Shown here: one piece after another, positions 13,301 through 44,042 of the stretch
Layout: each line of letters opens with the position of its first letter
Position numbering within the stretch: position 1 is the first letter of the stretch
Position numbers and translations under genes: made by a program
Notes under the pieces: model-generated
Told to the model about the DNA's origin: nothing
Database searches by the model: none
Seen by the model: only the letters and a program-made list of their open reading frames with translations
DNA from: Candidatus Heimdallarchaeum aukensis
Lineage (GTDB): Archaea; Asgardarchaeota; Heimdallarchaeia; Heimdallarchaeales; Heimdallarchaeaceae
NCBI GenBank assembly: GCA_021513695.1
Contig: CP084166.1
Span: 928,001-992,000 of the forward strand
Direction: 5' to 3'
Length of the DNA stretch: 64,000 bases

Positions 13301-16300
13301 CACACTACTTAGTTCAGCTTAAACACTTTAGACGTGAAAAATTGGTTAATGGTTTTAGGTGATTTTCACACTACTTAGTTCAGCTTAAACGTAAAGAGAA
13401 AAGAAGAAAGAAAAAGAACGATAAAAGAATTTTCACACTACTTAGTTCAGCTTAAACGAGATATTGCAACATTTTGCTACAAAAATATCTAAAAAATTTT
13501 CACACTACTTAGTTCAGCTTAAACTTTGAAGTATCTGTGATGTCTTTTGTGACTACTCCTGATTTTCACACTACTTAGTTCAGCTTAAACCTTACAGAGG
13601 GAGAATATGCGGGACAATATATTATTACATTTTCACACTACTTAGTTCAGCTTAAACATAGAAGAAGAGCTCATTACAACTTTCCTTTTCCGTGATTTTC
13701 ACACTACTTAGTTCAGCTTAAACAAGCGTCAGTAGCACCTACAAGCGGGACATTCACAAGATTTTCACACTACTTAGTTCAGCTTAAACTCTATTTTATA
13801 TACTTTCTCTAATTCTAAACTTCTACTATTTTCACACTACTTAGTTCAGCTTAAACAGTAGAAATGAAGGGGGGGTTAGGAGCTAGAAAAAATTTTCACA
13901 CTACTTAGTTCAGCTTAAACCAATTCTGTTAATTTGTTTATTTCTTCCCATCTTTCATTTTCACACTACTTAGTTCAGCTTAAACGATAAATGGTACAAT
14001 CGTTTGAACCCTTTTAGAAGAAATTTTCACACTACTTAGTTCAGCTTAAACAAGGTTATCGCCTTTACATTTAGGGTTCTCACAAGTAATTTTCACACTA
14101 CTTAGTTCAGCTTAAACTATTTATGTAAAAGTCCTCTTCATCTATTATTAAACTATTTTCACACTACTTAGTTCAGCTTAAACACTATAACTTTAAGCAC
14201 TTGTTTTACTATATCGAAAAATTTTCACACTACTTAGTTCAGCTTAAACAGTCCGTTCTCGTTTCTTATTTCTTCGTCATCGGTTCTAATTTTCACACTA
14301 CTTAGTTCAGCTTAAACATGATTTTGTATAGTTTCCTCTCTTTATAAATGAAAATTTTCACACTACTTAGTTCAGCTTAAACTCAGCGTTTTGTAGTTCT
14401 ATTTTTCGTAAGTCGTCATATTTTCACACTACTTAGTTCAGCTTAAACCATTTCTCCACCTCTTTTTCATTTCTACTTGTTCTAATTTTCACACTACTTA
14501 GTTCAGCTTAAACTTGCTCTCTAAATATATTGCATACATTCCTTTTCTGATTTTCACACTACTTAGTTCAGCTTAAACTGAACAAACACTCACAATCTTA
14601 TCTAATCTTTCAAACGTATTTTCACACTACTTAGTTCAGCTTAAACAAACTGAAGTCATGTCAAAGTTAGAAGCCCAACTATATTTTCACACTACTTAGT
14701 TCAGCTTAAACGAGCTTTTACTGAAGCAGAACTAAAAAGAAATACCCCAAATTTTCACACTACTTAGTTCAGCTTAAACCATTGAATTCCTCTTTCTTCC
14801 TCTGCACAATAGTGAATTTTCACACTACTTAGTTCAGCTTAAACACGGTGCTCTGAAATGATGGAGTTTGAACAAAAATATTTTCACACTACTTAGTTCA
14901 GCTTAAACGTACAATTATGTTAAATATAGAAGAATAAAAAGGAATTTTCACACTACTTAGTTCAGCTTAAACGATAAAAATGGTAGAAGAGCATAAGAAG
15001 AATGAGCTTAATTTTCACACTACTTAGTTCAGCTTAAACTCTATCCTCCTTTTTTTTGGTTTGCAGTTTATACAAGAATTTTCACACTACTTAGTTCAGC
15101 TTAAACTTCATAGAACTTGATGTTAGGGTTAGGAAAAACCTCATTTTCACACTACTTAGTTCAGCTTAAACTGTAGCTTTGAAAGTTTATCATAGTTATG
15201 TGAGAATTATTTTCACACTACTTAGTTCAGCTTAAACAGATGAAATTTCCGAATTAGTTACTTTATTTCCGTCTGATTTTCACACTACTTAGTTCAGCTT
15301 AAACATTGGAGCTCTTCCCTTGACAATACAAATATTACAAATTTTCACACTACTTAGTTCAGCTTAAACGAACGATTACAGTATAGAACAGACGAATATT
15401 ATTATATTTTCACACTACTTAGTTCAGCTTAAACATCAGCAACTCTTTGCTGGTTCTCAAGAGCTTTTTGATTTTCACACTACTTAGTTCAGCTTAAACG
15501 TGAAAAGTCTCTTGTGTAGGTATATCGTGCTGCGTATTTTCACACTACTTAGTTCAGCTTAAACAGGTTCTCACTTTGGACAAAAGAAGCAAGTTTAGAC
15601 GAATTTTCACACTACTTAGTTCAGCTTAAACTTTCTCCTGAAAGAAGATCGTATGGTAACGAATACGTATTTTCACACTACTTAGTTCAGCTTAAACTCT
15701 ACCACAATGAAGATCATGAGAAGAAACCCACACATTTTCACACTACTTAGTTCAGCTTAAACATTTTTTTCACCCATAATCATTTCCACCCCTCTTTGAT
15801 TTTCACACTACTTAGTTCAGCTTAAACTCAAGGTCAAAATGGGGAAAAAGGTCGAACTATGGTATTTTCACACTACTTAGTTCAGCTTAAACAACGCTTG
15901 TTTTGGGGTTTCACACCCCAAAATCTTATTTTCACACTACTTAGTTCAGCTTAAACTCTGCTTTATCTTCTTCTTTTTCACAATCTCTATGAATTTTCAC
16001 ACTACTTAGTTCAGCTTAAACTTTGCACCTATTATATTTTAAGAGTAAAGAATATAATTTTCACACTACTTAGTTCAGCTTAAACCAGAGAAAGACGCGG
16101 GTTCAATTTCGTATAAGTAAGTAATTTTCACACTACTTAGTTCAGCTTAAACTATCTTCTTTATCTCTTTTTCTACTAACTCATTCTTATTTTCACACTA
16201 CTTAGTTCAGCTTAAACTAGATAAAGGAAGTTTAGATAAAGCGATACAAGAATTGCTAAATTTTCACACTACTTAGTTCAGCTTAAACAAGCGAGTTCAG

Positions 16301-16420
16301 TATCTTCTTTTTCCTCATAGACCTTAATTTTCACACTACTTAGTTCAGCTTAAACATTTATTCCTGCTATACGCAATAGACTTGAAAACGTATTTTCACA
16401 CTACTTAGTTCAGCTTAAAC
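10342..16420 (-). CRISPR. CRISPR array 1: 93 repeats and 92 spacers, of which 82 are unique. The repeat is ATTTTCACACTACTTAGTTCAGCTTAAAC on the + strand, the reverse complement of the array-2 repeat. Spacers are 27-43 nt, mostly 35-38. It is transcribed on the minus strand from the leader at 16421-16535.
   Basis: Perfectly conserved 29-nt direct repeats with a ~65-bp period, counted by reading through the array. Orientation was inferred from the conserved leader and from identity to the array-2 repeat. Confidence 0.97.
11738..13063. repeat. Tandem segmental duplication inside array 1. A block of 10 spacer+repeat units (11738-12400) is repeated, apparently identically, at 12401-13063 (663 bp per copy).
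   Basis: Spacers ctgacttttttggagaatttggtttcgctgatagta .. tcacctatatatatgatgttctaacacataaaaatc occur twice in the same order. Confidence 0.9.
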
Positions 16421-16535
16421 GAAGTTTATTTTCTTTTCTAGCTATATTTTTCTCTCGTTTTGTCACTCACCTTCCTGGTCGACCTCCAATAAGGTATTAA
16501 CTTTATAAATATTGACCAGATACATAAACGTTTAC
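16421..16535 (-). promoter_or_regulatory. CRISPR leader of array 1 (minus-strand orientation). It is ~95% identical to the array-2 leader and contains a TATA-like TTTATAAAG and a GGAGGTCGACCAGGAAGGTGAGTGACAAAA block.
   Basis: The reverse complement of 16421-16535 aligns almost base-for-base with 28858-28971, including the junction ..AAAATAAACTTC|GTTTAAG. Confidence 0.8.
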
Positions 16536-20022: not shown

Positions 20023-20745
20023 TTGTTGATGAGGATTCTTATTTCTTTTAAGCCTAAATTTGATGTTTCAGAGGATGCCATAGTAAAACATGATATTCAA
20101 GGATTTATTTATAATCTAATCAAGTACAAAGATACTAAAGTTCTTTTAGATCATGATAAACATCATTTCAAATTTTTTTGTTTTAGCGATATTTTTCCTC
20201 AAGGTGATTTTAAAAAAGGAGAGACAAAAAATCTGTTAATTAGTTCTCCTACAAAAGAGCTAATAAATTTAATTGATGATAATCTTCCTCTTGAGAAATC
20301 CTATAGATTAGCTGGATTAACCATCGAAGTTATATCCAAAAAAACTTTTAACTTTCCCACAAAAAACAACTTTATTTCTGGAAGTCCTATAGTTTTATAC
20401 AAAGATAATACAAAGAATGAATATTTTAGCTTTAAGAAACACAAAAGTCTTAATTTCTTTCTCAATAGATTACAAGAAAATGCTGTGAAAAAGTATCAAA
20501 TTTACTATAACGATCCTGAATTTCAATTGTCTGGAAAGATTTTTGATACAATTGAATTTAGAAAGGAGGTTGCAGTTCACAACAGGAAACAAGGAAATGA
20601 ATTTATTCACATTGGCACTCTTTGGAAAAAATTAGAAAAAGAATACATAAAGAAAGAAGAAAGAAGGTTTTATCATTTTATCATGGAAAGTGGTCTTGGC
20701 GAAAAAAATAGTATGGGTTTTGGTTTTTTAAATCCTATTCAATAA
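20023..20745 (+). CDS. cas6: Cas6 endoribonuclease (type I-B).
   Basis: It is ~240 aa with the C-terminal glycine-rich loop GLGEKNSMGFGF, and it is the first gene of the cas operon. The likely start is the ATG at 20026. Confidence 0.85.
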   Translation: MLMRILISFKPKFDVSEDAIVKHDIQGFIYNLIKYKDTKVLLDHDKHHFKFFCFSDIFPQGDFKKGETKNLLISSPTKELINLIDDNLPLEKSYRLAGLTIEVISKKTFNFPTKNNFISGSPIVLYKDNTKNEYFSFKKHKSLNFFLNRLQENAVKKYQIYYNDPEFQLSGKIFDTIEFRKEVAVHNRKQGNEFIHIGTLWKKLEKEYIKKEERRFYHFIMESGLGEKNSMGFGFLNPIQ

Positions 20746-20850
20746 ATTGTATTTTTTTGTTTAAATTTTACAATTAATTTTTGAAAAAACAACCTTTAAA
20801 ATATTTTTTTCTTTCTGTTTTACCAATAAAACTTAATTATTGGTGTTCCA

Positions 20851-22863
20851 TTGATACAAGCAGTTAAACAATTAGGAAAAAAAATACGAGAGATTTATCC
20901 TGAAAAATATGCAGATTTTGTCGATGTCTTTATTGCAGATGTAAAAACAGATTTATTTTTGATAGAATTAGAGAAAAAAGAAAACGATTTTCAATATAAT
21001 AAAATTGTTTGGATGGAACCAAAACCTGAGATAATTCCTAAATTACTTTATAAAGACTTTGGGAGAAATATCAAAATTAGACCTGCGCCTGTAGCTAAAG
21101 TAGGTTATTTCCAGACCAAATCAAAAGATGGTAAAATTTCAGAAAAAGAGCTCGAGAATCACAAGAAGAAAATAAAAAGCGAACTAGACGCTTCCATAAT
21201 TAAATGGTTTTCTCAAGAAATTGATAGAAGAAAAGAAGGTAGTGAAAAAAGAATTTTCTTGGAAAATATAAAAAAAGGAATACTCAATTCATTAGATAAT
21301 ATAATTACAGATATTAAAGAACAGATGGATTTTTCAGGTCAAAATAAGAAAAAAAATGAAAAGTGTATAATAACACTACAATTTTTGGAAGGTGGTAAAG
21401 AATATTACCTTCGTGACTTTGATATTTTTTCTAAAGCTTTTTTAGATAAAAACTTGGAACGTTACGCAAATAAATGGGGAATAACTTCTAAAGGAGAAGA
21501 TGCTGTTTGTTCATTATGTCATGAGAAAAAAGAAGAAGTCTTTGGTTGTGCCTCAGACATTTTTAGCTGGTACACTCTTGATAAAAGAGGATTTGCACCA
21601 TTCTTTGATCAGACTTTAGGATGGAAACTATTTCCTGTCTGTAAAGAATGTATTATTGATCTAGAGATAGGCAAAAAATTTGTTTTAAACAATCTACGTC
21701 TTAAGTTTAATGATTTTACTAACTTTTTCTTAATTCCAAAGCTTCTAAATCCTAAAATTATCGATAAGGGTATTTTGAGAAGATTTGAGCTTTTCAAGAG
21801 TATTTCAGTTGAAAATAATGAACTATTGGAAAAATATAGGAAAAAAGAAGAGATACTTAAGAGAGCTACAAAAAGCACAATTGAAATGATCGGAGAACAA
21901 GAAAAAGATAACAATTTTACGCAGAATATGATTTTCCTGAATTTAATTTTCTTTGATGATGATGGAAAATCTATAAAGATTCTACGTAGTATTGAAGATG
22001 TTCTTCCTTCCAGGTTTGTTCAGATAACTGATGAGCTATATAAAATAAATAAGGATGAAACTTTGGACAGCTATAAAATTTATTTGCAATTAGTTTTAAA
22101 CATCTTATATCTGGAAAAAGAAAGTAAACGCGGTTCTACAATTGATAAAAAGTATTTATCTACAATCGATTCTCTTCTTAAAGATGTACCTTTAGATTAT
22201 GATGTTCTTATAAAGGATATCGCTTCAAGTTGTCAAGAGATAGTAAAGGAAAGTTATCTTTCTGATAACAATCTAAAAAAAATAGCTAAAAAAATTACAA
22301 ATATTGACAAAGGTAATAATGACGTAGAATTTGGCAACTCTTATGAGTTAATAATTAATGCTTATTTAAAATATTTAGTTTTATTAAAAAGATTAAATCT
22401 AATCCAAAAATGGAGGGTATCAAAAATGATTGATAAAACAGGACTTGAAGAAGAAATATCAGATAATAAGAGTCGACTAAGCATCTTAAATTCAATATTT
22501 AATGCTTATTCTGACTTTTTTGATCAACCCATTATTCGTGCTGTCTTTGTATTAGGCATTTTGACTAAGCTATTGATGAATATTCAGTATCGCAATCTCA
22601 ATGCTACGCCTTTTTTCAACAGGTTAAATGGGTTAAAATTGAATAAAAGAATAATAATCAAACTTGTTTCCGAAGTAAAAGGAAAACTAAGTGAATACTC
22701 TATAGCTTATGTTGATTTAGAAGAAGAGATGGCTAAATACTTCTTAGAAGCTGGTCACAATTGGCTGGTTTCTGATGACGAACTTAGTTTCTTCTTCGCT
22801 TTGGGAATGAATAACGCGAGTAAATTTAAATCAGAAACAAAAGAAGGTGAAGAAAATGAGTGA
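20851..22863 (+). CDS. cas8b: Cas8b (Csh1) large subunit of type I-B Cascade.
   Basis: 670 aa, located between cas6 and cas7. It carries a Cys-rich zinc-finger-like segment (CSLCHEKKEE..CKEC). Confidence 0.8.
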   Translation: MIQAVKQLGKKIREIYPEKYADFVDVFIADVKTDLFLIELEKKENDFQYNKIVWMEPKPEIIPKLLYKDFGRNIKIRPAPVAKVGYFQTKSKDGKISEKELENHKKKIKSELDASIIKWFSQEIDRRKEGSEKRIFLENIKKGILNSLDNIITDIKEQMDFSGQNKKKNEKCIITLQFLEGGKEYYLRDFDIFSKAFLDKNLERYANKWGITSKGEDAVCSLCHEKKEEVFGCASDIFSWYTLDKRGFAPFFDQTLGWKLFPVCKECIIDLEIGKKFVLNNLRLKFNDFTNFFLIPKLLNPKIIDKGILRRFELFKSISVENNELLEKYRKKEEILKRATKSTIEMIGEQEKDNNFTQNMIFLNLIFFDDDGKSIKILRSIEDVLPSRFVQITDELYKINKDETLDSYKIYLQLVLNILYLEKESKRGSTIDKKYLSTIDSLLKDVPLDYDVLIKDIASSCQEIVKESYLSDNNLKKIAKKITNIDKGNNDVEFGNSYELIINAYLKYLVLLKRLNLIQKWRVSKMIDKTGLEEEISDNKSRLSILNSIFNAYSDFFDQPIIRAVFVLGILTKLLMNIQYRNLNATPFFNRLNGLKLNKRIIIKLVSEVKGKLSEYSIAYVDLEEEMAKYFLEAGHNWLVSDDELSFFFALGMNNASKFKSETKEGEENE

Positions 22864-23785
22864 AATAATAAAAAATAGGTCTGAAATAGTTTTTTTGTAT
22901 GATGTTAGAGACGGTAATCCAAATGGTGACCCTGCTGATGGGAACAAGCCTAGGATTGATGAAACCAGTGGTATCAACATAGTAACTGATGTTCGACTAA
23001 AGAGAACAATAAGAGACTATATAAACAAGGTTAAAGGCCATGAAATTTTTGTTAAAAAGATAGAAGACTTAGAAGGGATAATCCAAACTTCTAAACAACG
23101 AGCACAAGATTTTCAGAATGATCCAGATAAGATTCTTTCTGAATGCGTGGATGTCAGGATGTTTGGGGGAACTATACCAATAAAAATTTCTGATAAGAAA
23201 GATGGTAGCATTACTTTTACTGGTCCCGTTCAATTCTCTATGGGGAGATCTCTTCACAGAGTCGAGTTAAAACATGTTAAAGGAACAGGAGCTTTTGCTT
23301 CTTCAGAAGGAAAGAAACAACAGACTTTTCGAGAAGAGTGGATACTACCTTATTCACTAATAAGCTTTTATGGTGTAATAAATGAGAATGGTGCAGAAGA
23401 TACACAGTTAACCGAAGAGGATGTTAAGCTTCTTGTAGAAAGTATCTGGAATGGGACTAATGATTTGTTAACAAGAAGTAAGATGGTTCATAGATCTAGA
23501 GTTCTTTTACAAATTATTTACCAAGAGAAAAACTTCCATGTCGGAGAGCTTGACAAAAAGATTAAGATGAAGGCTAAAGTTGAAGATGAAAAAATTAGAG
23601 GTACGGATGACTACACTCTTGAATTTGATAATTTTGTAGAAGCGATCAAAAATAACAAAGAAAAAGTAAAAATTATTCGTTACAAAGTAGATGACAGTAT
23701 TAATCTTGAATTTAATGGTGACAAAAAGACTATAGAAGAGATTCTAAAACTTACAGAATGTGAATTGGAAGAGCTGAAATTTTAA
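22847..23785 (+). CDS. cas7: Cas7 (Csh2) backbone subunit.
   Basis: The N-terminal signature LYDVRDGNPNGDPADGNKPR is typical of I-B/I-C Cas7. The true start is probably the ATG at 22859, preceded by GGTGA. Confidence 0.9.
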   Translation: MKKMSEIIKNRSEIVFLYDVRDGNPNGDPADGNKPRIDETSGINIVTDVRLKRTIRDYINKVKGHEIFVKKIEDLEGIIQTSKQRAQDFQNDPDKILSECVDVRMFGGTIPIKISDKKDGSITFTGPVQFSMGRSLHRVELKHVKGTGAFASSEGKKQQTFREEWILPYSLISFYGVINENGAEDTQLTEEDVKLLVESIWNGTNDLLTRSKMVHRSRVLLQIIYQEKNFHVGELDKKIKMKAKVEDEKIRGTDDYTLEFDNFVEAIKNNKEKVKIIRYKVDDSINLEFNGDKKTIEEILKLTECELEELKF

Positions 23786-23791
23786 TAATAG

Positions 23792-24553
23792 GTGAGACTA
23801 ATGCTAAAACAGGAAGCTGAAGTAAGAGAAGTTTTAGTTTTCGATATTTGGGGTGATTTTGCTCATTTTAAGAAAAACTATGCTACAACTTCAGCTCTTA
23901 CATACAATTTTCCTCCTCGAAATACTATTGCAGGAATAATTGGAGCAATTTTAGGTTTAAAGAGGGCAGATTTTCCTGAAAAATTGTCTCCTGAAAAGAG
24001 TTACATTGGTGTTTCAATACTCTCTCCAATAATGAAAAAAACTATTACAATGAATCTTATTCACACTAAACCTTCTGAATCACTTATATTCAAAAATAAT
24101 TTTGGTTATTTCAAAAAGCACACACAGATTCCTTTTCAATTTTTATCTAATATCTCATTTAGGGTGTATTTTTCAACTGACGATGAGGAAATGTTTTCAC
24201 AACTATATACATATCTTAAAAACCATAAGTCTCATTATACAGTTTCGTTAGGTTTGAGCAATCTACTTTGTAACTTTAAGTTAATAGGAAAAAAAACAAT
24301 AAGAAAAAAAGAAGTAGCTAACAAAGAAGTAGAGGTTTTAACAGTAATTCCGATGAACAAAGTCAAAGAAGTAAATGTGTTTAAAAATCCTAAAATGAAT
24401 ATCGAGAATTTACCCAGATTTATCGATAGTTCAAGAACAGTTCATGAATACCAGGAAGTTCTATCAAGCATGGATCCAGAAAAACCTCTTTTTGTAGTCC
24501 CTAGAGATACCTTATGGGAGATTGAAAATGACAAATTCATCAGTTTCCTCTGA
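23792..24553 (+). CDS. cas5: Cas5 (Cas5h/Cas5b).
   Basis: ~250 aa. The N-terminal LVFDIWGDFAHFKK..PPRNTIAGIIGAILG is typical of Cas5. It sits between cas7 and cas3. Confidence 0.85.
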   Translation: MRLMLKQEAEVREVLVFDIWGDFAHFKKNYATTSALTYNFPPRNTIAGIIGAILGLKRADFPEKLSPEKSYIGVSILSPIMKKTITMNLIHTKPSESLIFKNNFGYFKKHTQIPFQFLSNISFRVYFSTDDEEMFSQLYTYLKNHKSHYTVSLGLSNLLCNFKLIGKKTIRKKEVANKEVEVLTVIPMNKVKEVNVFKNPKMNIENLPRFIDSSRTVHEYQEVLSSMDPEKPLFVVPRDTLWEIENDKFISFL

Positions 24554-26990
24554 AAATCAGATAAACATTTTTTCTCACCCTAATAAAAATATTTTAGAAC
24601 ATTTAAGTGAGACAGAAAGAGAAATTCTAAATATCCTTGAAAAACTACAGCCCAATTTTTCAATCAAAAAAAACATTATTATCGAAATCGCTAGAATTTT
24701 AGCTTTAACACATGATATTGGAAAATGCACAATCTTTTTTCAAGAATATCTTCATTCAAACGAAGAAAATAACTTCAAAAAATTGGGAGAATATCAAAGT
24801 TCAAAACTTCACCACCATGGACTAATCTCTGCAGTTTTTACCTATTATACACTAAAGAAACTTTTAAATTCAAATAATGAGCAGTTCTATGACCTGAATA
24901 GTGGATATAAAGACCTATTACCTCATATAGGCTTTTTAACAACAAAAAAACATCATGGTAATTTAGGAAATTTTTATGATGAGATTATTATAAACAGAAC
25001 AAGTGAAGAAAAGATTAGACAGCAACTAGAAAATTTCCATCCCCAATTCGAAAATGTTGTCGAATTCATAAGAAATAAAATTAATATAACAATTTCATTT
25101 AATGAATTTTCAGAATCCTTTGGAGATTTAATTGATGAATTAGCTTTCAGTGATGAACTATTATTGAACTATTATGAAAATAGTAGAGATTGTGAACTTT
25201 ATCTATTTACTTTATTTTTACATTCAATCTTAACAGATGCAGATAAAACTTCTGCTATTGGTGTCTCTAAGCCTATTCTTCCATTTATTTCTTCTAACAA
25301 AATTATCAAAAACAGGAAAAAAATAATCCAGAAAAAAGGAAAAAAGACATATTTAGATAACTTAAGAGAGAATATTTACAAAGAAGTAATTGCAAAGATA
25401 GAAAAAACACCTTTAGATAACAAAATATTTACATTAACAGCTCCTACAGGTTCAGGAAAAACTCTCACAGTTTTTGAAGCAGCATTTAGATTGAAAGATA
25501 AAATTTTAAGGAGAACTAATATAGAAATGAAAATTATTTATTGCCTTCCATTTCTCAGCATCATTGATCAAAATGCTCACATTATTAACCAACTGCTAGA
25601 TCCTGACTCAGTTAAGTTTCTTCCTTCAACTCAACTACTAATTCATCATTACTTGGCAGAAGTTCAATACAGCTCTTATGAAGAAGATTATACCTTTGAT
25701 GAAAGTAGATTCCTAATTGAGGATTGGCATTCTTCAGTTATTATTACAACCTTTATTCAGCTTTTTCATAGTATTTTTACCAATAGAAATAGCAAGATAA
25801 GGAAACATCACAATATACAAAATTCTATCATAATACTTGATGAAGTTCAAAACATTCCTCATAAGTATTGGTTATTGATCAGGGAAGTTTTTCAAAGATT
25901 ATCAGAGATCGAGAATGTTTATATCATTTTTACAACAGCCACACAGCCTAAAATTTTTAGTTCAGAAGAGAAAGTTGTTGAATTACTTGAAAATAAGGAA
26001 AAATACTTTGAACAGTTAAGTAGAATTACTTTAGAACCAAAAATTGATAACAATATCACACTCAACGAGTTTATTTTAGAAATTAATGAGAAACTGCAAA
26101 AGAACAGTGACAAGGATATTCTAATTGTTGCGAATACAATCCGAGAAGCTCAAGAGATTTTTGACAGTATTAATTTTAAAAAAGATCATGATAAGTTATT
26201 TTTCCTTTCAAGTCAAATAATCCCTAGAAAGAGGAAAGAAAGAATTGAAGAAATAAAGAGAAAATTAGAAAAAGAAAAAGATAAAAGAGAGAGTAATGAA
26301 AAACGAATTATTTTAGTAACTACCCAATTAATTGAAGCAGGAGTAGATATCGATTTTGATATTGTAATAAGAGATTTAGGACCAATAGATTCTATAAATC
26401 AAGTAGCAGGAAGATGTAACAGAAACGGAGAAGAAGAAAAGGGAAAAACAATTGTTTATTCAGTCATTGACCAAAAAACAAAAAGATTATTTGCTTCATA
26501 CATTTATGACGGATTTATTTTAAGTAAAACGAAGGATGTTCTAAAAAACAAAAGAGTGATAGAAGAACAAGAATTCCTCAAAATCATTGACGATTATTAT
26601 TTAAGCATCGAAAAGACAGGGGACACAATAACCTCCACTAATATACTAGACTCTATCTTTAATTTAGAGTTTGATGAAATAGGTAAATTTAGCCTGATAG
26701 AAGAAAGAGCTGATCAAGTTCCTGTTTTTATTGAGATAGATAAAAAGGCAAAGGAAATTTGGGCAGAATATTTGGAAATATGGAATATTAAAGATTGGAA
26801 GAAAAGAAATGAGAAATTTATAAAAATCAAAAATGATCTCTATAGTAACTTAATTAACGTAGACAAGAAAAAAATCAAAACAATTGAGCAAATAAAGGGT
26901 TATTATTATATCGATTTTCAAAATGCTAGGAACTACTACGACAATGAAAAAGGTTTCATTGGGAAAGAAAAAGATGTTATTTTATTATAA
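24522..26990 (+). CDS. cas3: Cas3 with an N-terminal HD nuclease domain and a DExH helicase.
   Basis: HD motif LTHDIGK. Helicase motifs TAPTGSGKT, ILDEVQ, TATQP and VTTQLIEAGVDIDFD. 822 aa. Confidence 0.9.
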   Translation: MKMTNSSVSSENQINIFSHPNKNILEHLSETEREILNILEKLQPNFSIKKNIIIEIARILALTHDIGKCTIFFQEYLHSNEENNFKKLGEYQSSKLHHHGLISAVFTYYTLKKLLNSNNEQFYDLNSGYKDLLPHIGFLTTKKHHGNLGNFYDEIIINRTSEEKIRQQLENFHPQFENVVEFIRNKINITISFNEFSESFGDLIDELAFSDELLLNYYENSRDCELYLFTLFLHSILTDADKTSAIGVSKPILPFISSNKIIKNRKKIIQKKGKKTYLDNLRENIYKEVIAKIEKTPLDNKIFTLTAPTGSGKTLTVFEAAFRLKDKILRRTNIEMKIIYCLPFLSIIDQNAHIINQLLDPDSVKFLPSTQLLIHHYLAEVQYSSYEEDYTFDESRFLIEDWHSSVIITTFIQLFHSIFTNRNSKIRKHHNIQNSIIILDEVQNIPHKYWLLIREVFQRLSEIENVYIIFTTATQPKIFSSEEKVVELLENKEKYFEQLSRITLEPKIDNNITLNEFILEINEKLQKNSDKDILIVANTIREAQEIFDSINFKKDHDKLFFLSSQIIPRKRKERIEEIKRKLEKEKDKRESNEKRIILVTTQLIEAGVDIDFDIVIRDLGPIDSINQVAGRCNRNGEEEKGKTIVYSVIDQKTKRLFASYIYDGFILSKTKDVLKNKRVIEEQEFLKIIDDYYLSIEKTGDTITSTNILDSIFNLEFDEIGKFSLIEERADQVPVFIEIDKKAKEIWAEYLEIWNIKDWKKRNEKFIKIKNDLYSNLINVDKKKIKTIEQIKGYYYIDFQNARNYYDNEKGFIGKEKDVILL

Positions 26991-27002
26991 CGAAATGATG
27001 GA

Positions 27003-27031
27003 GTTCAAGCTAAACTAAGTAGTATGAAAAT
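27003..27031 (+). repeat. Solitary degenerate CRISPR repeat (26/29 identical: GTTCAAGCTAAACTAAGTAGTATGAAAAT) in the cas3-cas4 intergenic spacer. It is in the same orientation as the cas genes and array 2.
   Basis: Direct comparison with the array repeat GTTTAAGCTGAACTAAGTAGTGTGAAAAT shows 3 mismatches. No second repeat lies nearby. Confidence 0.8.
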
Positions 27032-27073
27032 TAGAGGTAGAAGTAATGGTATTAAATTCTTGGTGAAATTGTA

Positions 27074-27604
27074 ATGGTGGAGTTAAATCATATTAGCATT
27101 AAGAATACTGATTTTGCAGTAACTGGAGTAATGGTTCAATATTTATTTTCATGTAAAAGAGAATTGTGGTTTTTTACCAAAAAAATTGATTTCAACAAAG
27201 AGGATCAGAACATTCAAATTGGCAAAATAATACATGAAACAAGCTATAAACGAAATAAAAAAGAGTTTGACTTAGGTTTTGTAAAATTTGACTTAATTGA
27301 AACAAAAAACAGGATAATAATTTCTGAAATAAAAAAATCTTCAAAACTTTTGGAACCTGCAAAAATGCAACTTTTGTATTATGTTTACATTTTAAGTAAA
27401 ATAACTGAAAAAGAAGTAGAAGGAGAAATTAGAATTCCAAAAGAGAGAAAAAAAGTAAAGATTCAATTGCAAAACGAAGAAGAAAAATTAATTCAAAAAG
27501 CTTTGAGAGAGATTAAAGAAATTTCCTTACTGGAAAGACCTCCCAAAGCAGAAAAAAAATTTTATTGTAAGAATTGCGCTTATTACATTTTTTGCTGGGT
27601 TTGA
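27074..27604 (+). CDS. cas4: Cas4 (RecB-like nuclease with a C-terminal Cys cluster).
   Basis: 176 aa. An N-terminal Cys (FSCKREL), a C-terminal CKNCAYYIFC, and a RecB-like core (IGKIIHE). Confidence 0.85.
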   Translation: MVELNHISIKNTDFAVTGVMVQYLFSCKRELWFFTKKIDFNKEDQNIQIGKIIHETSYKRNKKEFDLGFVKFDLIETKNRIIISEIKKSSKLLEPAKMQLLYYVYILSKITEKEVEGEIRIPKERKKVKIQLQNEEEKLIQKALREIKEISLLERPPKAEKKFYCKNCAYYIFCWV

Positions 27605-28591
27605 GTGAAAAAAATGAAAGATTCTATTTACATTACAAAGGAAGGAGTAATTTACAGAAAAGATAATACTATTGTTTTTCAAAATCAAGAACAAAAGCAT
27701 ACTTTACCTATCGAAGCAGTGAAAGATATATATTGTATTGGCAAAGTAACTATAAGATCTGGAGCAGCTTATCAACTAATGGAAAAAAGGATTCCTGTAC
27801 ATTTTTTCGGAAAATATGGACACTATAGAGGAACATTACAACCAAAACAAGATCTAATCTCTGGAGAAGTAATAGTAAAACAAGTTCAACATTATACTGA
27901 TTACATAAAAAGAATAAAAATTGCAAAAGAGATGTTTAAAGGAATAAAACACAACATTCTCTGGGTTCTAAAATATTACAAATCAAAAAGAGATATAGAA
28001 GATGTAGTTGAAAAAATTGAACATGTTAATATTCAAGAAGAAATATTAAAAATAAATACATTAAGAAGTTTAGAAGGTCAAATATGGGAACTTTTCTATC
28101 AAGCTGCTGATACAATTTGTCCTTCATGGGGTTTTAGAAAAAGGACTAGAAGGCCTCCTTTAGATGAAGGAAATGCACTAATATCTTATGGAAACTCAGT
28201 TCTATATGGAAAAACAATTTCTGAAATATTCAAAACTTATCTTCATCCTGCAATTTCGTTTATACACGAACCAAGTGAAAGAAGGTACTCTTTAGCCTTA
28301 GATCTAGCTGATATTTTCAAACCAGTAATAGTTTTTAGAACAGTCTTCAGGCTTATAAATCAGAAAATAATTTCAAAGAAAGATTTTGAAAAAGAAGTAG
28401 GAGTCCAAATTTCAGAAAAAGGAAAAAAAGTATTTATCACAGAATTAGAAAAAACATTCACAACTACAGTAAGACATCCAAATCTGAAAAGAAATACCTC
28501 ATACCAGTTTTTGATAAGACTTGAAGGACTAAAAATAATGAAACATGTTCTAGGAGATAAAAAATATGAAAGCTTTAAAGCATGGTGGTAG
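27605..28591 (+). CDS. cas1: Cas1 integrase.
   Basis: 328 aa, sharing the N-terminal Cas1 fold signature (IYITKEGVIYRKDNTIVF). It is adjacent to and overlaps cas2. The likely start is the ATG at 27614. Confidence 0.9.
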   Translation: MKKMKDSIYITKEGVIYRKDNTIVFQNQEQKHTLPIEAVKDIYCIGKVTIRSGAAYQLMEKRIPVHFFGKYGHYRGTLQPKQDLISGEVIVKQVQHYTDYIKRIKIAKEMFKGIKHNILWVLKYYKSKRDIEDVVEKIEHVNIQEEILKINTLRSLEGQIWELFYQAADTICPSWGFRKRTRRPPLDEGNALISYGNSVLYGKTISEIFKTYLHPAISFIHEPSERRYSLALDLADIFKPVIVFRTVFRLINQKIISKKDFEKEVGVQISEKGKKVFITELEKTFTTTVRHPNLKRNTSYQFLIRLEGLKIMKHVLGDKKYESFKAWW

Positions 28592-28857
28592 AGATATACG
28601 TGATAATCGTTTATGACGTGGGAGAAGAAAGAGTAAATAGAATACATAAATTCTTGAAAGCATATTTAACATGGACACAAAATTCAGTATTTGAAGGAAA
28701 AATAACAAAAGCAACATTAGCTCAAATAAAAACAGGAATAAAAAGCATAATAAAAAAAGAAGTCGATTCAATAAAAATATTCAAAATAAAAGGAGAACAA
28801 TGGATGAATATTGAAATAATGGGAGTAGAAAAAAATAAGTTTCAGAATATAATTTAG
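28582..28857 (+). CDS. cas2: Cas2.
   Basis: 91 aa with the N-terminal VIIVYDV motif. It lies immediately upstream of the leader of array 2. Confidence 0.9.
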   Translation: MVVEIYVIIVYDVGEERVNRIHKFLKAYLTWTQNSVFEGKITKATLAQIKTGIKSIIKKEVDSIKIFKIKGEQWMNIEIMGVEKNKFQNII

Positions 28858-28971
28858 GTAAATCGTAAGAATCAGGTCGACATTTATAAAGATGATACAT
28901 TATTGGAGGTCGACCAGGAAGGTGAGTGACAAAAGGAAAGAAAAATATAACTAGAAAAGAAAATAAACTTC
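28858..28971 (+). promoter_or_regulatory. CRISPR leader of array 2 (TATA-like TTTATAAAG at ~28883). It is nearly identical to the array-1 leader.
   Basis: See the array-1 leader. It sits directly between the cas2 stop and the first repeat. Confidence 0.8.
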
Positions 28972-31900
28972 GTTTAAGCTGAACTAAGTAGTGTGAAAAT
29001 TTCTTTTGTTCTTTGGAGGAGGACAACCTTCAACGAGTTTAAGCTGAACTAAGTAGTGTGAAAATCAGTCTGGGTATATTTTATGCCCCTCAATATTTTG
29101 AGTTTAAGCTGAACTAAGTAGTGTGAAAATTGCTGGCTGGACTGGGCATAATTTCCAGAAATCTCTGTTTAAGCTGAACTAAGTAGTGTGAAAATAGTAA
29201 AATAGCTTTTATTTATTCCGTAGTAATATATGGTTTAAGCTGAACTAAGTAGTGTGAAAATCGCTATTGTAGTCGAGTTAGAAGATGGAGAGATTGAGTT
29301 TAAGCTGAACTAAGTAGTGTGAAAATAAATATATTGTGATGAATTGGATAAAAGAACTAAAAGTTTAAGCTGAACTAAGTAGTGTGAAAATAAACCAGAA
29401 GGAATGACTTTCATTCCTGCTACAGGTTTAAGCTGAACTAAGTAGTGTGAAAATTAATCAGAATAAAATGCTCATAATCATTGGTATAATAGTTTAAGCT
29501 GAACTAAGTAGTGTGAAAATGCAAAGCAATGAAAGGAGTGTTTTGTCTGGTGAGGTCGTTTAAGCTGAACTAAGTAGTGTGAAAATCAATCAGATTTGAG
29601 GGACAAAATAGTCCCGTTGGGACGTTTAAGCTGAACTAAGTAGTGTGAAAATACTGAAGAACAAGAAAAGAATATAAAAAGAACCAAGGTTTAAGCTGAA
29701 CTAAGTAGTGTGAAAATTAATATATCTATCGACTTGAACAAATTAGTTGAAGAGGGTTTAAGCTGAACTAAGTAGTGTGAAAATGGTAAATCCCCCAACA
29801 ATCCTGAAAGTGTTAAATTTGTTTAAGCTGAACTAAGTAGTGTGAAAATATTGTTCTTTTTTCAAATCATCTATTTTTTTTGCTCGTTTAAGCTGAACTA
29901 AGTAGTGTGAAAATTACAATTGACAGTAGTCACACACAAACCATTTAGGTGTTTAAGCTGAACTAAGTAGTGTGAAAATAAAATTCTTCGTGTGTCATAT
30001 AAAAGGCATCATCAGTTTAAGCTGAACTAAGTAGTGTGAAAATAGATCAGAGAGACTTGGGTAGAGTTAGTGAGATCTATGTTTAAGCTGAACTAAGTAG
30101 TGTGAAAATTACATATTTTTGAATAATTGAGACATGCATATGACGTTTAAGCTGAACTAAGTAGTGTGAAAATACAGCTCTCAACTGATAAGAGCGTTCT
30201 TTTTCATTGTTTAAGCTGAACTAAGTAGTGTGAAAATTTGTCAAAGTGTTTGTATAAGTGTCAATATAATCTGTTTAAGCTGAACTAAGTAGTGTGAAAA
30301 TATGTCTTTAGAGACTTGTTGAAGAGCAGGATTGTCAGGTTTAAGCTGAACTAAGTAGTGTGAAAATCAAGCATTTCTGCGATAACGACACCAGAACCAT
30401 TAAGTTTAAGCTGAACTAAGTAGTGTGAAAATTAAATGTGGTCGTGTATCGTTATATGGTGCTCTGAAATGTTTAAGCTGAACTAAGTAGTGTGAAAATA
30501 TATCTCCAGAGTGCCAAATTTCAACATTTGACACGTTTAAGCTGAACTAAGTAGTGTGAAAATCCAATTAATTAAGCCGCTGTTTCAAAAGGTGGTTCAG
30601 TTTAAGCTGAACTAAGTAGTGTGAAAATTTCGATGGATCCATAAAGGTAAATTAGGATCCCAAAAGTTTAAGCTGAACTAAGTAGTGTGAAAATAAAAAG
30701 CCAAGAGATGGATTGATGAACAAAAAAACCGTTTAAGCTGAACTAAGTAGTGTGAAAATCAGTCTGGATAGAGTTTGTGCCCATTAATATTCTGAATTGT
30801 TTAAGCTGAACTAAGTAGTGTGAAAATAGAGTAGGATTGTCAGATTGATCCATAAGGTATAGAAGTTTAAGCTGAACTAAGTAGTGTGAAAATGGTGACG
30901 CCACAAGCGAGGCATTCCCAAGCTCAATAGTTTAAGCTGAACTAAGTAGTGTGAAAATGGATTAAAAAATATGTCTCCTCTCGCTCGTTACGGGTTTAAG
31001 CTGAACTAAGTAGTGTGAAAATAATATCTTTAGATACCTGTTGAAGAGCGGAGTTGGTTTAAGCTGAACTAAGTAGTGTGAAAATCCAAAATTCTCGACT
31101 GCCTCTAAAGCAAATGAGAAAGTTTAAGCTGAACTAAGTAGTGTGAAAATTTTTTTTTCTGTCTGTTATTTCTTCTACTTCTTCTGTTTAAGCTGAACTA
31201 AGTAGTGTGAAAATTTATGATATGCGAACGTTTGCATGTTTGCGAATACAAGTTTAAGCTGAACTAAGTAGTGTGAAAATAGAAAACGTTTGGCTCGAAT
31301 GGATTGGTTTCTATGTCGTTTAAGCTGAACTAAGTAGTGTGAAAATTTGCTAAACCCGCCGCATAATCTTTTTTCTTTTATTTTGTTTAAGCTGAACTAA
31401 GTAGTGTGAAAATTAACCTGCAGAAATATCTTGTAAAATCTTGAATTCAACCTTGTTTAAGCTGAACTAAGTAGTGTGAAAATTAGTTTTGATTTGTAAA
31501 AGACGGATATCCACTTGTTGTGCTGTTTAAGCTGAACTAAGTAGTGTGAAAATATCAACACGTGGGTTTCTATCCAAATCTAATCCTCTGTTGTTTAAGC
31601 TGAACTAAGTAGTGTGAAAATAGCGATATAAAGAAGTTATCCTTTTCAGTATAATAAGGTTTAAGCTGAACTAAGTAGTGTGAAAATAAATTTCTAAAAA
31701 TATTGAAAGGTCAAAATCAAGATTGTTTAAGCTGAACTAAGTAGTGTGAAAATCTAACATGTGTAAGATTCATTGGGCCAATCCAAATTGTTTAAGCTGA
31801 ACTAAGTAGTGTGAAAATCTAAACACAATTTGCATGATGCCATGCTTGTTTTTTGTTTAAGCTGAACTAAGTAGTGTGAAAATGTTGGTTGTGTATAGTG

Positions 31901-33583
31901 TAAATAGATTTTTCTGATTGGGTTTAAGCTGAACTAAGTAGTGTGAAAATTTCTACTTCAAAGAATGAGCACCAATAGTTAAACCAGTTTAAGCTGAACT
32001 AAGTAGTGTGAAAATGCTTCATCTGCTAAAAGTTGTAGTTGTTCATAAAGGTTTAAGCTGAACTAAGTAGTGTGAAAATTGTGCTACATATATACACACC
32101 TATATCCTGTTTATCGTTTAAGCTGAACTAAGTAGTGTGAAAATATCCTGATAGGTGAGTCCTACAGGAGAAAGAAAAAGTTTAAGCTGAACTAAGTAGT
32201 GTGAAAATATCCTGATAGGTGAGTCCTACAGGAGAAAGAAAAAGTTTAAGCTGAACTAAGTAGTGTGAAAATCCCAATAGCATCCTCTTTTATCTGGGGC
32301 TTGGTTTATGTTTAAGCTGAACTAAGTAGTGTGAAAATCTGTGATTTCTGCGGAAATAAACATGTGACGGAAAGTTTAAGCTGAACTAAGTAGTGTGAAA
32401 ATGCAACTCTTTCCGTCCAGCGCACTAAAGCTGCTTTTGGGTTTAAGCTGAACTAAGTAGTGTGAAAATGTTTTTCATGGTAGCTTGCTACCAAAAATTT
32501 ACTTAAAAGTTTAAGCTGAACTAAGTAGTGTGAAAATGAGACTGTTAATAGCGAAGTCAGATTCCTCAAAAGGTGTTTAAGCTGAACTAAGTAGTGTGAA
32601 AATTTGTCTTTACACAGGGCATTCTCAGTTCTGGAGGAAGTTTAAGCTGAACTAAGTAGTGTGAAAATCACATAAACAAATTAGAAAGCGAAATAACCAC
32701 AGTTGTTTAAGCTGAACTAAGTAGTGTGAAAATCAATATTCTTCATCTTCTTCTAAATCATACAATAGCGTTTAAGCTGAACTAAGTAGTGTGAAAATAG
32801 AAAAGAGGAACCGTTGTTCTTAAAGGTAAAAATCGTTTAAGCTGAACTAAGTAGTGTGAAAATAAAGAGTATTGAACTCCTGGTTCAAAACTGATTTTGC
32901 AGTGTTTAAGCTGAACTAAGTAGTGTGAAAATTAATTGCTTTTTTGTCTGCATGACTTGGTAATTCAAAGTTTAAGCTGAACTAAGTAGTGTGAAAATTT
33001 CAAGGTGAGACCAACGATCCTGGTTACTTCGGTTGTTTAAGCTGAACTAAGTAGTGTGAAAATAATATGTAATTAAATAAGTTTTTATTGTGGTAAAATG
33101 TTTAAGCTGAACTAAGTAGTGTGAAAATACATTAAGAAAACGCTTACCATCTAAAGAAACAATCGTTTAAGCTGAACTAAGTAGTGTGAAAATTCATAAG
33201 TTGACCAATATTCAGAAATTACATAACGTTTAAGCTGAACTAAGTAGTGTGAAAATGAAAGCGTTTAGAATTGGTGGCGGTTCTGGTTGCAGGTTTAAGC
33301 TGAACTAAGTAGTGTGAAAATTACTGGGCAATGGAAAAAAGCTGTTGCCGCATTCAAGTTTAAGCTGAACTAAGTAGTGTGAAAATTAACTCACTCGCTC
33401 ACCCTCAGAGAGAGCCACAAACGTTTAAGCTGAACTAAGTAGTGTGAAAATTAATTTACGTCATGACTATGATGCGACCCCCAACGAGGTTTAAGCTGAA
33501 CTAAGTAGTGTGAAAATATTTGACTACTAGGTTTAGGTTTGAATATGAACCAGAGTTTAAGCTGAACTAAGTAGTGTGAAAAA
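28972..33583 (+). CRISPR. CRISPR array 2: 71 repeats and 70 spacers, of which 69 are unique. The repeat is GTTTAAGCTGAACTAAGTAGTGTGAAAAT. The terminal repeat is degenerate (..GAAAAA).
   Basis: 29-nt repeats with a ~65-bp period. The leader-distal last repeat has one mismatch. One spacer (atcctgataggtgagtcctacaggagaaagaaaaa) is present twice in tandem (32145-32179 and 32209-32243). Confidence 0.97.
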
Positions 33584-43278: not shown

Positions 43279-44042
43279 GGTAGTGTCTAGTTTTCTTCCG
43301 ACAAAAATATTTGTGGGGACTCTAATAGTAAGATATGAACATTCAAAAACTATCTACTCTTTTTAAGAGATGCAGAGTCCCCAAAAAGATAATAATAAAA
43401 GTTTTTTATGAATATATTGGTTCAAAGAATGGTTTGAGGACAGTAGCATGGAAGAATGGTTTAACACACCAAACATTATGGTATTGGGTAAAGAAGTTCA
43501 GGCTCTTTAGGAAAAGTTTACATAGAATTGTAGCAGAGAGAGGGGGAATACCAGAGATTATAGTAGTTGATGAGACGGAGATTAAGACCTCTCAAGGCTC
43601 AATGTATATGTGGTTCGCGTTAGATCCTTACAACAAGACTTTACTGGGTTTTAGTATTACTAAAGGACGGAGTAATCTTGAATGTTTACTAACTTTCCGT
43701 TATTGGCTCAAATGTTGGGGTTTTAAGCCCCGTATTGTCGTTACAGATGCAGGGGTATGGTATCCTGCCTTACTTCGTCTAGGTATCAAAATCTCCGTTA
43801 TCAAAGGTGGTTTACGCTCCTATATTGAACGTTTTAATGCTACTCTTAAGAGTTATCGTTGGTTTCATTCTATTCTCCACTGCACTTGTCCTATCCGTGC
43901 CGTCTATGGCTCTACTCATCTTTCTGGTTTTCTTACTCTCTTTATGCTCCATTATAATTTCGTTCGTCCTCATCAGAGCTTGGGACATCCTCCCCTTAGT
44001 TCCTTTTTACCTAGGAGGTGGTATAAAAACTAGACACTACCA
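43279..44042 (+). mobile_element. IS6-family-like insertion sequence (764 bp) with 16-bp perfect terminal inverted repeats GGTAGTGTCTAGTTTT. It carries a single DDE transposase.
   Basis: IRL GGTAGTGTCTAGTTTT lies at 43279-43294. IRR AAAACTAGACACTACC at 44027-44042 is its exact reverse complement. The size, single ORF and GG-start IRs fit IS6. No clear target-site duplication is visible. Confidence 0.75.
43335..44033 (+). CDS. DDE transposase (IS6-like), 232 aa.
   Basis: An N-terminal HTH (LTHQTLWYWVKKF). The catalytic D..D..E context is VVDETEI, VVTDAG and ERFNATLK. A C-terminal YNFVRPHQSLG motif. Its stop codon lies inside the IRR. Confidence 0.75.
   Translation: MNIQKLSTLFKRCRVPKKIIIKVFYEYIGSKNGLRTVAWKNGLTHQTLWYWVKKFRLFRKSLHRIVAERGGIPEIIVVDETEIKTSQGSMYMWFALDPYNKTLLGFSITKGRSNLECLLTFRYWLKCWGFKPRIVVTDAGVWYPALLRLGIKISVIKGGLRSYIERFNATLKSYRWFHSILHCTCPIRAVYGSTHLSGFLTLFMLHYNFVRPHQSLGHPPLSSFLPRRWYKN

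What the first reader, a model, noticed from the sequence alone, without database searches (positions are those of the whole stretch)
29066..31055. Families of related and overlapping spacers in array 2 (repeated sampling of the same target region from divergent variants)
Spacer 2 (cagtctgggtatattttatgcccctcaatattttga) and spacer 28 (cagtctggatagagtttgtgcccattaatattctgaatt) are clearly homologous, at ~75% identity. Spacer 21 (atgtctttagagacttgttgaagagcaggattgtcag) and spacer 32 (aatatctttagatacctgttgaagagcggagttgg) are also homologous. Spacer 29 (agagtaggattgtcagattgatccataaggtatagaa) overlaps the 3' end of spacer 21 by ~11 nt. This is the pattern expected from primed adaptation against escape variants of one mobile element. 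It also gives a handle to find the target.
Basis: seen in the sequence. Interest (0 to 1): 0.5.

Follow-up and report, generated by a model that had tools for sequence, protein, structure and literature searches.

The report
Related CRISPR spacers resampling one target
Five spacers in a type I-B CRISPR array of the Asgard archaeon Candidatus Heimdallarchaeum aukensis were captured at different times from diverged versions of the same two protein-coding spots of an unidentified virus or plasmid, which is a real but ordinary record of repeated infection.

Summary
Spacers 2 and 28 align in register from base 1 (29/36 identical). Spacers 21 and 32 align with a 1-nt offset (27/33). Spacer 29 overlaps the 3' end of spacer 21 by 16 nt (15/16). 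After correcting for all comparisons, the two long pairs are expected about 1e-4 times by chance.

Ten of the 13 mismatches fall on one codon phase, and most are synonymous in an open frame on the opposite strand. All 163 non-terminal repeats are identical. The spacers are therefore independent captures from diverged coding variants, not duplicates that drifted inside the array.

The locus is a complete type I-B system with two arrays (92 and 70 spacers). It lies in the published 3.08-Mb genome of Ca. H. aukensis. Conserved leaders give the acquisition order: 32, then 29, then 28, then 21, then 2.

Priming by the older, roughly 80%-matching spacers is plausible, because H. hispanica I-B primes from a 73% match. 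It cannot be shown here. PAM-limited resampling from a small pool of mobile elements explains the counts equally well. The roughly 19% divergence is mostly synonymous, so it reflects lineage diversity rather than escape mutation.

No target was found in any phage, plasmid, viral-contig, metagenome or protein collection, or in the published Heimdallarchaeum mobilome. This is a known phenomenon of low-to-moderate interest.

The parts
29066..29101 (+). Array-2 spacer 2. Family 1, the newer member. Second spacer from the leader.
   Evidence: It is 29/36 identical to S28 in register. The reverse frame reads QNIEGHKIYPD.
30760..30798 (+). Array-2 spacer 28. Family 1, the older member. 39 nt long.
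   Evidence: The reverse frame reads IQNINGHKLYPD. It extends 3 nt beyond S2 at the 3' end.
30302..30338 (+). Array-2 spacer 21. Family 2, the newest member.
   Evidence: It is 27/33 identical to S32. The reverse frame reads DNPALQQVSKD.
30828..30864 (+). Array-2 spacer 29. Family 2, intermediate age. It overlaps the S21 protospacer by 16 nt and extends the target region by 21 nt.
   Evidence: 15/16 identical in the overlap. The reverse frame reads LYLMDQSDNPT, continuous with the S21 frame.
31023..31056 (+). Array-2 spacer 32. Family 2, the oldest member. It starts 1 nt upstream of the S21 register and is 34 nt long.
   Evidence: The reverse frame reads NSALQQVSKDI.
30433..30470 (+). Array-2 spacer 23. 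Tentative third target region: its reverse complement overlaps array-1 spacer 24.
   Evidence: 14/15 identical. The one mismatch is synonymous in the frame FLFKLHHFRAPYNDTRPHL, one of two stop-free frames of the merged 58-nt sequence. The overlap is not significant on its own.
14845..14879 (-). Array-1 spacer 24. Tentative partner of array-2 spacer 23, on the opposite strand.
28972..33583 (+). CRISPR array 2: 71 repeats and 70 spacers. The repeat is GTTTAAGCTGAACTAAGTAGTGTGAAAAT. The terminal repeat is degenerate.
28858..28971 (+). Leader of array 2. About 110 nt are conserved with the array-1 leader, which fixes the acquisition order (spacer 1 is the newest).
10342..16420 (-). CRISPR array 1: 93 identical repeats and 92 spacers (82 unique). 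It contains no in-register relatives of the families.
20023..28857 (+). Type I-B cas operon, in the order cas6, cas8b (TM1802 family), cas7, cas5, cas3, cas4, cas1, cas2.

Best explanation
Shown:
- Array 2 belongs to a complete type I-B CRISPR-Cas locus of Ca. Heimdallarchaeum aukensis.
- Spacers 32, 29, 28, 21 and 2 (oldest to newest) are five separate integration events.
- They come from two short protein-coding regions, each sampled in two or three sequence variants that differ by about 19%, mostly at synonymous sites.
- Partners share the same start, or a start 1 nt apart.
- The spacers are antisense to the inferred genes. The encoded peptides are LYLMDQSDN[P/S][A/T]LQQVSKDI and IQNI[E/N]GHK[I/L]YPD.

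Inferred:
- The shared start is what Cas4/Cas1-Cas2 selection at a fixed PAM would give.
- The host lineage met successive related lineages of a virus or plasmid.
- The older crRNAs (S32, S28, S29) still bound the newer variants imperfectly. S32 has a seed mismatch at position 4. S28 has none in positions 1-8, and three of its seven mismatches fall at positions 12, 18 and 24, which in other type I Cascade complexes are flipped out and not read.
- That imperfect binding recruited Cas3 and primed the capture of the matching replacements, S21 and S2, at or next to the same sites.

The independent-acquisition part is close to certain. Involvement of priming is roughly even odds.
For: - A type I-B gene set with cas3 and cas4-cas1-cas2 sits next to the array.
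- Conserved leaders on both arrays and a degenerate terminal repeat give the time order.
- The alignments are significant.
- 5 of 7 and 5 of 6 mismatches fall on one codon phase (simulated p = 0.087 and 0.029).
- In the inferred reverse frame, 7 of 10 changed codons are synonymous, and all five spacers are open in that frame.
- All repeats except the degenerate terminal one are identical, while the spacers differ by about 19%, so in-array drift is excluded.
- Partner spacers differ in length and ends: 36 vs 39 nt, and 37 vs 34 nt with a 1-nt shift.
- H. hispanica I-B adaptation is primed by a natural spacer only ~73% identical to the virus (PMC3936756). Priming there tolerates more mismatches and 23 PAMs (PMC4066796). 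P. furiosus I-B also primes (PMC7293040).
- S21 lies 21 nt upstream of the older S29 protospacer in the same orientation. That is the majority class in H. hispanica.
- The 5' flank of S29, read from S21 and S32, is TGA. This falls within the TNA class of the Cas8b1 system of H. thermocellum.
Against: - No target was found, so protospacer clustering, strand bias and the PAM could not be measured.
- Two same-site pairs among 151 spacers is compatible with unprimed, PAM-limited resampling.
- S29 lies downstream of S32 in the same orientation, which is the minority class (11%) in H. hispanica.
- TGA has a purine at position -2, whereas all profiled Cas8b proteins prefer a pyrimidine there.
- The genome comes from a metagenomic assembly scaffolded with Nanopore reads from amplified DNA. 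It contains an exact 663-bp array duplication. Co-occurrence of all the spacers in one cell's array is therefore not guaranteed.
Confidence: 0.55

Rival explanations
1. Unprimed (naive) resampling. Cas4/Cas1-Cas2 can only take fragments next to a PAM, and the host faces a small pool of related elements. The same sites are therefore hit again by chance or because they are acquisition hot spots, with no role for the older crRNAs.
For: - Only 2 same-site pairs and 1-2 partial overlaps occur among 11,325 spacer pairs.
- A birthday-type estimate, n(n-1)/2c, gives about 5,700 equally likely sites. That corresponds to tens to a couple of hundred kb of PAM-bearing DNA (my inference).
- P. furiosus takes up correctly processed spacers without any effector genes (PMC7293040).
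Against: - In the best-studied archaeal I-B system, adaptation strictly requires priming (PMC3936756).
- All five related spacers lie in array 2, and three of them (28, 29, 32) sit within five positions of each other. This hints at bursts, but the support is weak (P about 0.02-0.09, my calculation).
Confidence: 0.35
2. The related spacers come from a conserved gene shared by different mobile elements, or from paralogues, rather than from variants of a single element. This is compatible with either the primed or the unprimed route.
For: - About 19% nucleotide divergence with mostly synonymous changes implies long separation of the source sequences.
- Three haplotypes are seen at family 2.
- Nothing links family 1 to family 2 except their proximity in the array.
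Against: Nothing direct. The shared start positions only show that the local sequence and PAM are conserved.
Confidence: 0.3
3. Co-occurrence in one array is an artefact or the result of recombination. The assembled array would be a mosaic of arrays from co-existing strains that each sampled their own local variant.
For: - The genome was built by metaSPAdes and then scaffolded with Nanopore reads from amplified DNA (PMC8813620).
- Array 1 has an exact 663-bp, 10-unit tandem duplication, and array 2 has a duplicated unit.
- Short-read Logan contigs break at both arrays.
Against: - The related spacers are separated by many unique spacers.
- Array 2 has no block repeats.
- k = 99 exceeds the repeat-spacer-repeat length, so unique paths are resolvable.
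Confidence: 0.1
4. A spacer was duplicated within the array and then drifted by mutation, or the similarity is due to chance.
For: Exact spacer duplications do occur in these arrays.
Against: - All repeats bar the terminal one are identical, while the spacers differ at 6-7 positions.
- The mismatches follow codon phase.
- The spacer ends differ.
- The chance expectation is about 1e-4 per pair.
Confidence: 0.02

Closest known systems
[quoted passage not shown]
   Same: - It is an archaeal type I-B system with cas3 and cas4-cas1-cas2.
[quoted passage not shown]
- S21 lies upstream of S29 in the same orientation, which matches the main strand rule seen there.
   Different: - There, priming was shown genetically and by mapping 97 new protospacers. 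Here there is no target, no map and no genetics.
- Here the new spacers re-sample the very same site, not just the neighbourhood.
- The PAM of this system is unknown.
CRISPR-guided discovery of the Heimdallarchaeum mobilome (Wu et al. 2022, PMC8813620)
   Same: Same organism and the same arrays. That study also found no spacer matches in virus databases or GTDB, and only a few in local metagenomes.
   Different: That paper does not mention priming or related spacers. Its 56 mobile-element contigs do not contain k-mers from these spacers.
Cas8b1-type I-B PAM recognition (T. maritima YYD; H. thermocellum TTN/TNA; PMC13199841)
   Same: The Cas8b here belongs to the TM1802 family (Pfam E = 4e-96). 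The flank inferred for S29 (TGA) and the A at position -1 of S21 fit TNA or TTA-type PAMs.
   Different: Only one full flank and one partial flank could be read, and both come from sister variants rather than from the true targets. TGA breaks the rule of a pyrimidine at position -2.
Imprecise ('slipped') spacer acquisition.
   Same: S21 and S32 start 1 nt apart at the same site. If the PAM were TTG, S29 would start 1 nt too late.
   Different: A degenerate PAM (for example TTT followed by A) would make both registers canonical. Slipping cannot be called without the target.

Membership tests
[quoted passage not shown] | Signature large subunit Cas8b together with Cas7, Cas5 and Cas6 | tested here: met
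   Cas_TM1802 (PF09484) E = 4e-96 and TIGR02591 Csh1. Cas7/Csh2 TIGR02590 scores 281 bits against a cutoff of 171. Cas5b TIGR02592 and Cas6 TIGR01877 are also matched.
[quoted passage not shown] | Cas3 with HD nuclease and helicase domains | tested here: met
   TIGR01587 cas3_core and TIGR01596 cas3_HD are both matched in the ORF at 24522-26990.
[quoted passage not shown] | Adaptation module cas4-cas1-cas2, with a subtype I-B Cas1 | tested here: met
   TIGR03641 cas1_HMARI scores 408.7 bits against a cutoff of 304. Cas4 is matched by PF01930 and Cas2 by PF09827.
[quoted passage not shown] | Adjacent repeat-spacer array with a leader | tested here: met
   Two arrays with 29-nt repeats and 34-42-nt spacers (one of 27 nt), and a conserved ~110-nt leader.
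Footprint of primed adaptation | An older spacer that partially matches the DNA from which newer spacers were taken | tested here: met
   S32 and S29 are older than S21, and S28 is older than S2. Identities are 81-94%.
Footprint of primed adaptation | New protospacers cluster around the priming protospacer on the target | tested here: inconclusive
   S29, S21 and S32 lie within a 59-nt stretch. The positions of all other spacers are unknown because no target was found.
Footprint of primed adaptation | Strand bias relative to the priming protospacer | not testable with these tools
   This needs the target sequence. There are only two informative relations: S21 upstream of S29 in the same orientation (fits) and S29 downstream of S32 in the same orientation (minority class), by the rule in PMC3936756.
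Footprint of primed adaptation | The priming protospacer carries a PAM permissive for Cascade binding | not testable with these tools
   The flanks of the S32 and S28 protospacers are unknown.
Escape mutants of one element | Few substitutions, concentrated in the PAM or seed | tested here: not met
   6-7 substitutions are spread over positions 3-33, mostly at third codon positions. There is no seed change at all between S28 and S2.
In-array duplication followed by drift | Repeats and spacers accumulate substitutions at comparable rates, and the unit boundaries are identical | tested here: not met
   There are no substitutions in the 163 non-terminal repeats. Partner spacers differ in length and ends.

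The most novel reading that the evidence does not exclude
The series S32, S29, S21 and the pair S28, S2 would be a natural record of primed 'memory updating' by an Asgard-archaeal type I-B system. In this reading, older crRNAs with about 80% matches drive re-capture of the very same PAM-defined sites from newly arriving relatives of a persistent, still-unsampled Heimdallarchaeum virus lineage. The 1-nt register shifts would be slipped acquisitions that help keep priming going. The two or three reconstructed peptides would then be the first sequence tags of that virus.
Probability: 0.25. Interest if true: 0.45.

Novelty: already known. Interest (0 to 1): 0.25.

Why it matters
Viruses of Heimdallarchaeia, among the closest known archaeal relatives of eukaryotes (Wu et al. 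2022, PMC8813620), are almost unknown. These arrays are among the few records of them.

The related spacers show that Ca. H. aukensis repeatedly met diverging relatives of the same coding sequences. They also yield a 59-nt target stretch and a 39-nt target stretch, with their peptides, which can be used as probes. Beyond that, the pattern is what CRISPR biology already predicts, so it does not open a new question.

Tried and rejected
Nucleotide searches with the arrays:
- Whole arrays by blastn against INPHARED phages and array 2 against PLSDB plasmids: no match.

IMG/VR viral contigs (8 scans):
- Near-exact family patterns: no match.
- Codon-degenerate patterns for both families and for the S29 tail: only random hits, whose flanks do not match.
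- Codon-degenerate pattern for the tentative third region: no match.
- The newest spacers of both arrays: no match.

JGI metagenome contigs:
- A 35-nt codon-degenerate family-2 pattern and the repeat: no match.

GTDB representative genomes:
- The repeat and Cas1: no match. The window region may be masked in that collection.

Peptide searches:
- Reconstructed peptides, padded with X, against 5.8 billion proteins: no candidate.
- tblastn of the peptides against phages: no match.

Other searches:
- Self-targets in the window at DNA and protein level: none.
- k-mers of S2, S21, S28, S29, S32, A1_24/A2_23 and nine leader-proximal spacers in the published Heimdallarchaeum mobilome FASTA (the positive control worked): none.
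- Logan contigs carrying the cas operon break at both leaders, so no alternative array versions could be read.

Considered and rejected:
- S26 as a further family-2 member. It would need a 1-nt gap, and its score is within the noise.
- A general antisense bias of the spacers: none found.
- Additional weaker in-register families: none found.
Full report
**What is at the locus**

The window holds two CRISPR arrays with the same 29-nt repeat, GTTTAAGCTGAACTAAGTAGTGTGAAAAT.
- Array 1 lies at 10342-16420 on the minus strand. It has 93 repeats and 92 spacers, of which 82 are unique.
- Array 2 lies at 28972-33583 on the plus strand. It has 71 repeats and 70 spacers. Its last repeat is degenerate.

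Between the arrays sits a complete type I-B operon at 20023-28857, in the order cas6, cas8b (TM1802/Csh1 family), cas7, cas5, cas3 (HD plus helicase), cas4, cas1 (I-B-specific model, 409 bits) and cas2.

Both arrays are preceded, in the repeat-forward direction, by a conserved leader of about 110 nt. Spacer 1 of each array is therefore the newest. The five spacers of the finding were acquired in the order 32, 29, 28, 21, 2.

**Host**

An HdrA/QmoB-like protein in the window (51931-53958) is 100% identical to an NCBI protein annotated 'Candidatus Heimda...' on a 3,081,793-bp contig. The same protein occurs in JGI metagenomes 3300033141, 3300033150 and 3300033156, and in the sequencing run SRR15988954.

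Wu et al. 2022 (PMC8813620) describe two circular Heimdallarchaeum genomes of 3.32 and 3.08 Mb. The 3.08-Mb genome is Ca. H. aukensis, from a sediment enrichment. The window is thus from a published Asgard-archaeal genome. That paper does not mention priming or related spacers.

**Checking the observation**

Exact ungapped alignment gives:
- S2/S28: 29/36 identical, in register from position 1.
- S21/S32: 27/33 identical, with S32 starting 1 nt upstream.
- S21/S29: a 16-nt overlap with 15/16 identical, offset by 21 nt.

With a per-base match probability of 0.276, the two long pairs have tail probabilities of 6e-11 and 1.4e-10. Over about 1.3 million comparisons, that is 8e-5 and 1.8e-4 expected.

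Thirty shuffles never exceeded an overlap score of 13, against 15 observed for both pairs.

The S21/S29 overlap alone would be marginal (0.06 expected). It involves a spacer already in a family, however, and it continues that family's reading frame.

No further in-register families exist. Pairs with at least 60% identity number 10 observed against 8.1 in shuffles, and the 10 include the two real pairs.

One additional, tentative overlap turned up. The 3' end of array-1 spacer 24 matches the reverse complement of array-2 spacer 23 at 14/15 positions. The single mismatch is synonymous in the frame FLFKLHHFRAPYNDTRPHL, one of two stop-free frames of the merged sequence. About 0.1-0.2 such overlaps are expected by chance.

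**What the differences mean**

- Mismatch positions are 9, 12, 14, 18, 24, 26 and 33 for S2/S28, and 3, 12, 15, 27, 29 and 30 (S21 numbering) for S21/S32. Ten of the 13 fall on one codon phase (simulated p = 0.087 and 0.029).
- On the reverse strand that phase is the third codon position of an open frame. Family 1 reads QNIEGHKIYPD and IQNINGHKLYPD. Family 2 reads LYLMDQSDNPT, DNPALQQVSKD and NSALQQVSKDI. Seven of the 10 changed codons are synonymous.
- The partner spacers differ in length and ends: 36 vs 39 nt, and 37 vs 34 nt with a 1-nt shift.
- All 163 non-terminal repeats are identical.

Together these facts exclude chance and exclude duplication followed by drift. They show independent captures from diverged, protein-coding versions of the same sites. 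At family 2, at least three haplotypes were sampled.

**What can be said about mechanism**

The shared start position is what PAM-anchored selection by Cas4/Cas1-Cas2 would give.

The only flanks that can be read come from sister spacers. The three bases 5' of S29 are TGA in both S21 and S32. The base 5' of S21 is A in S32.

The Cas8b is of the TM1802 (Cas8b1) family. Profiled Cas8b1 systems use YYD, TTN/TNA, TTB/CCC or TTA, and all profiled Cas8b proteins prefer a pyrimidine at position -2 (PMC13199841). TGA fits only the TNA class. A TTG PAM would put S29 one base out of register. The PAM therefore stays unresolved.

Consider the older crRNAs against the newer variants:
- S32 has a mismatch at position 4, which is inside the seven-nucleotide seed reported for T. 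maritima I-B.
- S28 has no mismatch in positions 1-8. Three of its seven mismatches are at positions 12, 18 and 24, which are not read by type I Cascade complexes. That last point is established knowledge for other subtypes and is only inferred here.

Such partial matches are the substrate for priming:
- In H. hispanica I-B, a natural spacer only ~73% identical to the virus is required for adaptation, and it drives adaptation (PMC3936756).
- Priming there tolerates more mismatches and 23 PAMs (PMC4066796).
- P. furiosus I-B also primes (PMC7293040).

S21 lies 21 nt upstream of the older S29 site in the same orientation, which is the main class in H. hispanica. S29 lies downstream of S32 in the same orientation, which is the minority class.

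**Why priming is not proven**

With no target, neither protospacer clustering nor strand bias can be measured.

The counts are also compatible with unprimed resampling. Two same-site pairs among 11,325 spacer pairs imply about 5,700 equally likely sites, which is a plausible number of PAM sites in tens to a couple of hundred kb of mobile DNA (my inference).

Two weak hints point towards bursts. All five related spacers lie in array 2. Spacers 28, 29 and 32 lie within five positions of each other (P about 0.02-0.09 by my calculation).

The term 'escape variants' is not supported. The differences are numerous, spread along the protospacer and mostly synonymous, so they reflect standing divergence between lineages. 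Whether the two families lie on one element is unknown.

**Hunt for the target**

Every route was negative:
- Arrays against phage genomes and array 2 against plasmids.
- Eight pattern scans of IMG/VR, including codon-degenerate designs. Their only hits had unrelated flanks.
- JGI metagenome contigs.
- GTDB representative genomes.
- Peptide queries against 5.8 billion proteins and against phage genomes.
- The window itself.
- The 56-contig Heimdallarchaeum mobilome published by Wu et al., searched by k-mer with a working positive control.

This agrees with that paper's report that none of the spacers matched virus databases or GTDB.

**Caveats**

The H. aukensis genome was assembled from a metagenome with metaSPAdes. 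It was then scaffolded with Nanopore reads from amplified DNA.

Array 1 contains an exact 663-bp tandem duplication of ten repeat-spacer units. Array 2 contains one duplicated unit. Short-read contigs break at both arrays.

Co-occurrence of all the spacers in one cell's array is likely, but it has not been verified at the level of single reads.

**Verdict**

The reading 'repeated sampling of the same target region from divergent variants' is supported. 'Primed adaptation against escape variants of one element' is plausible in part but unproven, and the 'escape' part is contradicted by the pattern of substitutions.

This is an ordinary feature of an active type I CRISPR array, in a host of special interest whose viruses are still unsampled.

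Noticed in passing
window 11709-13034 (array 1): An exact tandem duplication of a 663-bp block of ten repeat-spacer units: 11709-12371 is identical to 12372-13034. It could be unequal recombination between repeats or an artefact of the metagenome and Nanopore-scaffold assembly.
   Followed up: partly
window 32145-32243 (array 2): Spacers 49 and 50 are identical (ATCCTGATAGGTGAGTCCTACAGGAGAAAGAAAAA). This is a single-unit duplication.
   Followed up: no
window 27003-27031: A solitary degenerate repeat (GTTCAAGCTAAACTAAGTAGTATGAAAAT, 3 mismatches to the consensus) lies between the cas3 stop and the cas4 start. No second repeat follows it. The 18 nt downstream have no partial match elsewhere in the window. 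Not resolved.
   Followed up: partly
window 14845-14879 (array 1, minus strand) and 30433-30470 (array 2): Spacers in the two different arrays overlap by 15 nt on opposite strands (14/15 identical). The mismatch is synonymous in the frame FLFKLHHFRAPYNDTRPHL, one of two stop-free frames of the merged sequence. This may be a third repeatedly sampled target region, but the overlap is not significant on its own.
   Followed up: partly
window 16421-16530 (minus strand) and 28858-28971: The two arrays share a conserved leader of about 110 nt. It includes an ATTTATAAAG box that resembles an archaeal TATA element.
   Followed up: partly
window 11356-11382 (array 1): One unusually short spacer of 27 nt, among spacers otherwise 34-42 nt long.
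   Followed up: no
window 16570-19525 (minus strand): Two large ORFs lie between the array-1 leader and cas6. One is 501 aa with no family hit. The other is 492 aa with two winged-helix DNA-binding domains and could be a regulator associated with the CRISPR locus.
   Followed up: no
window 43335-44033: An ORF with weak, below-threshold matches to the integrase core (rve) domain, consistent with the abundant transposases reported for this genome.
   Followed up: no
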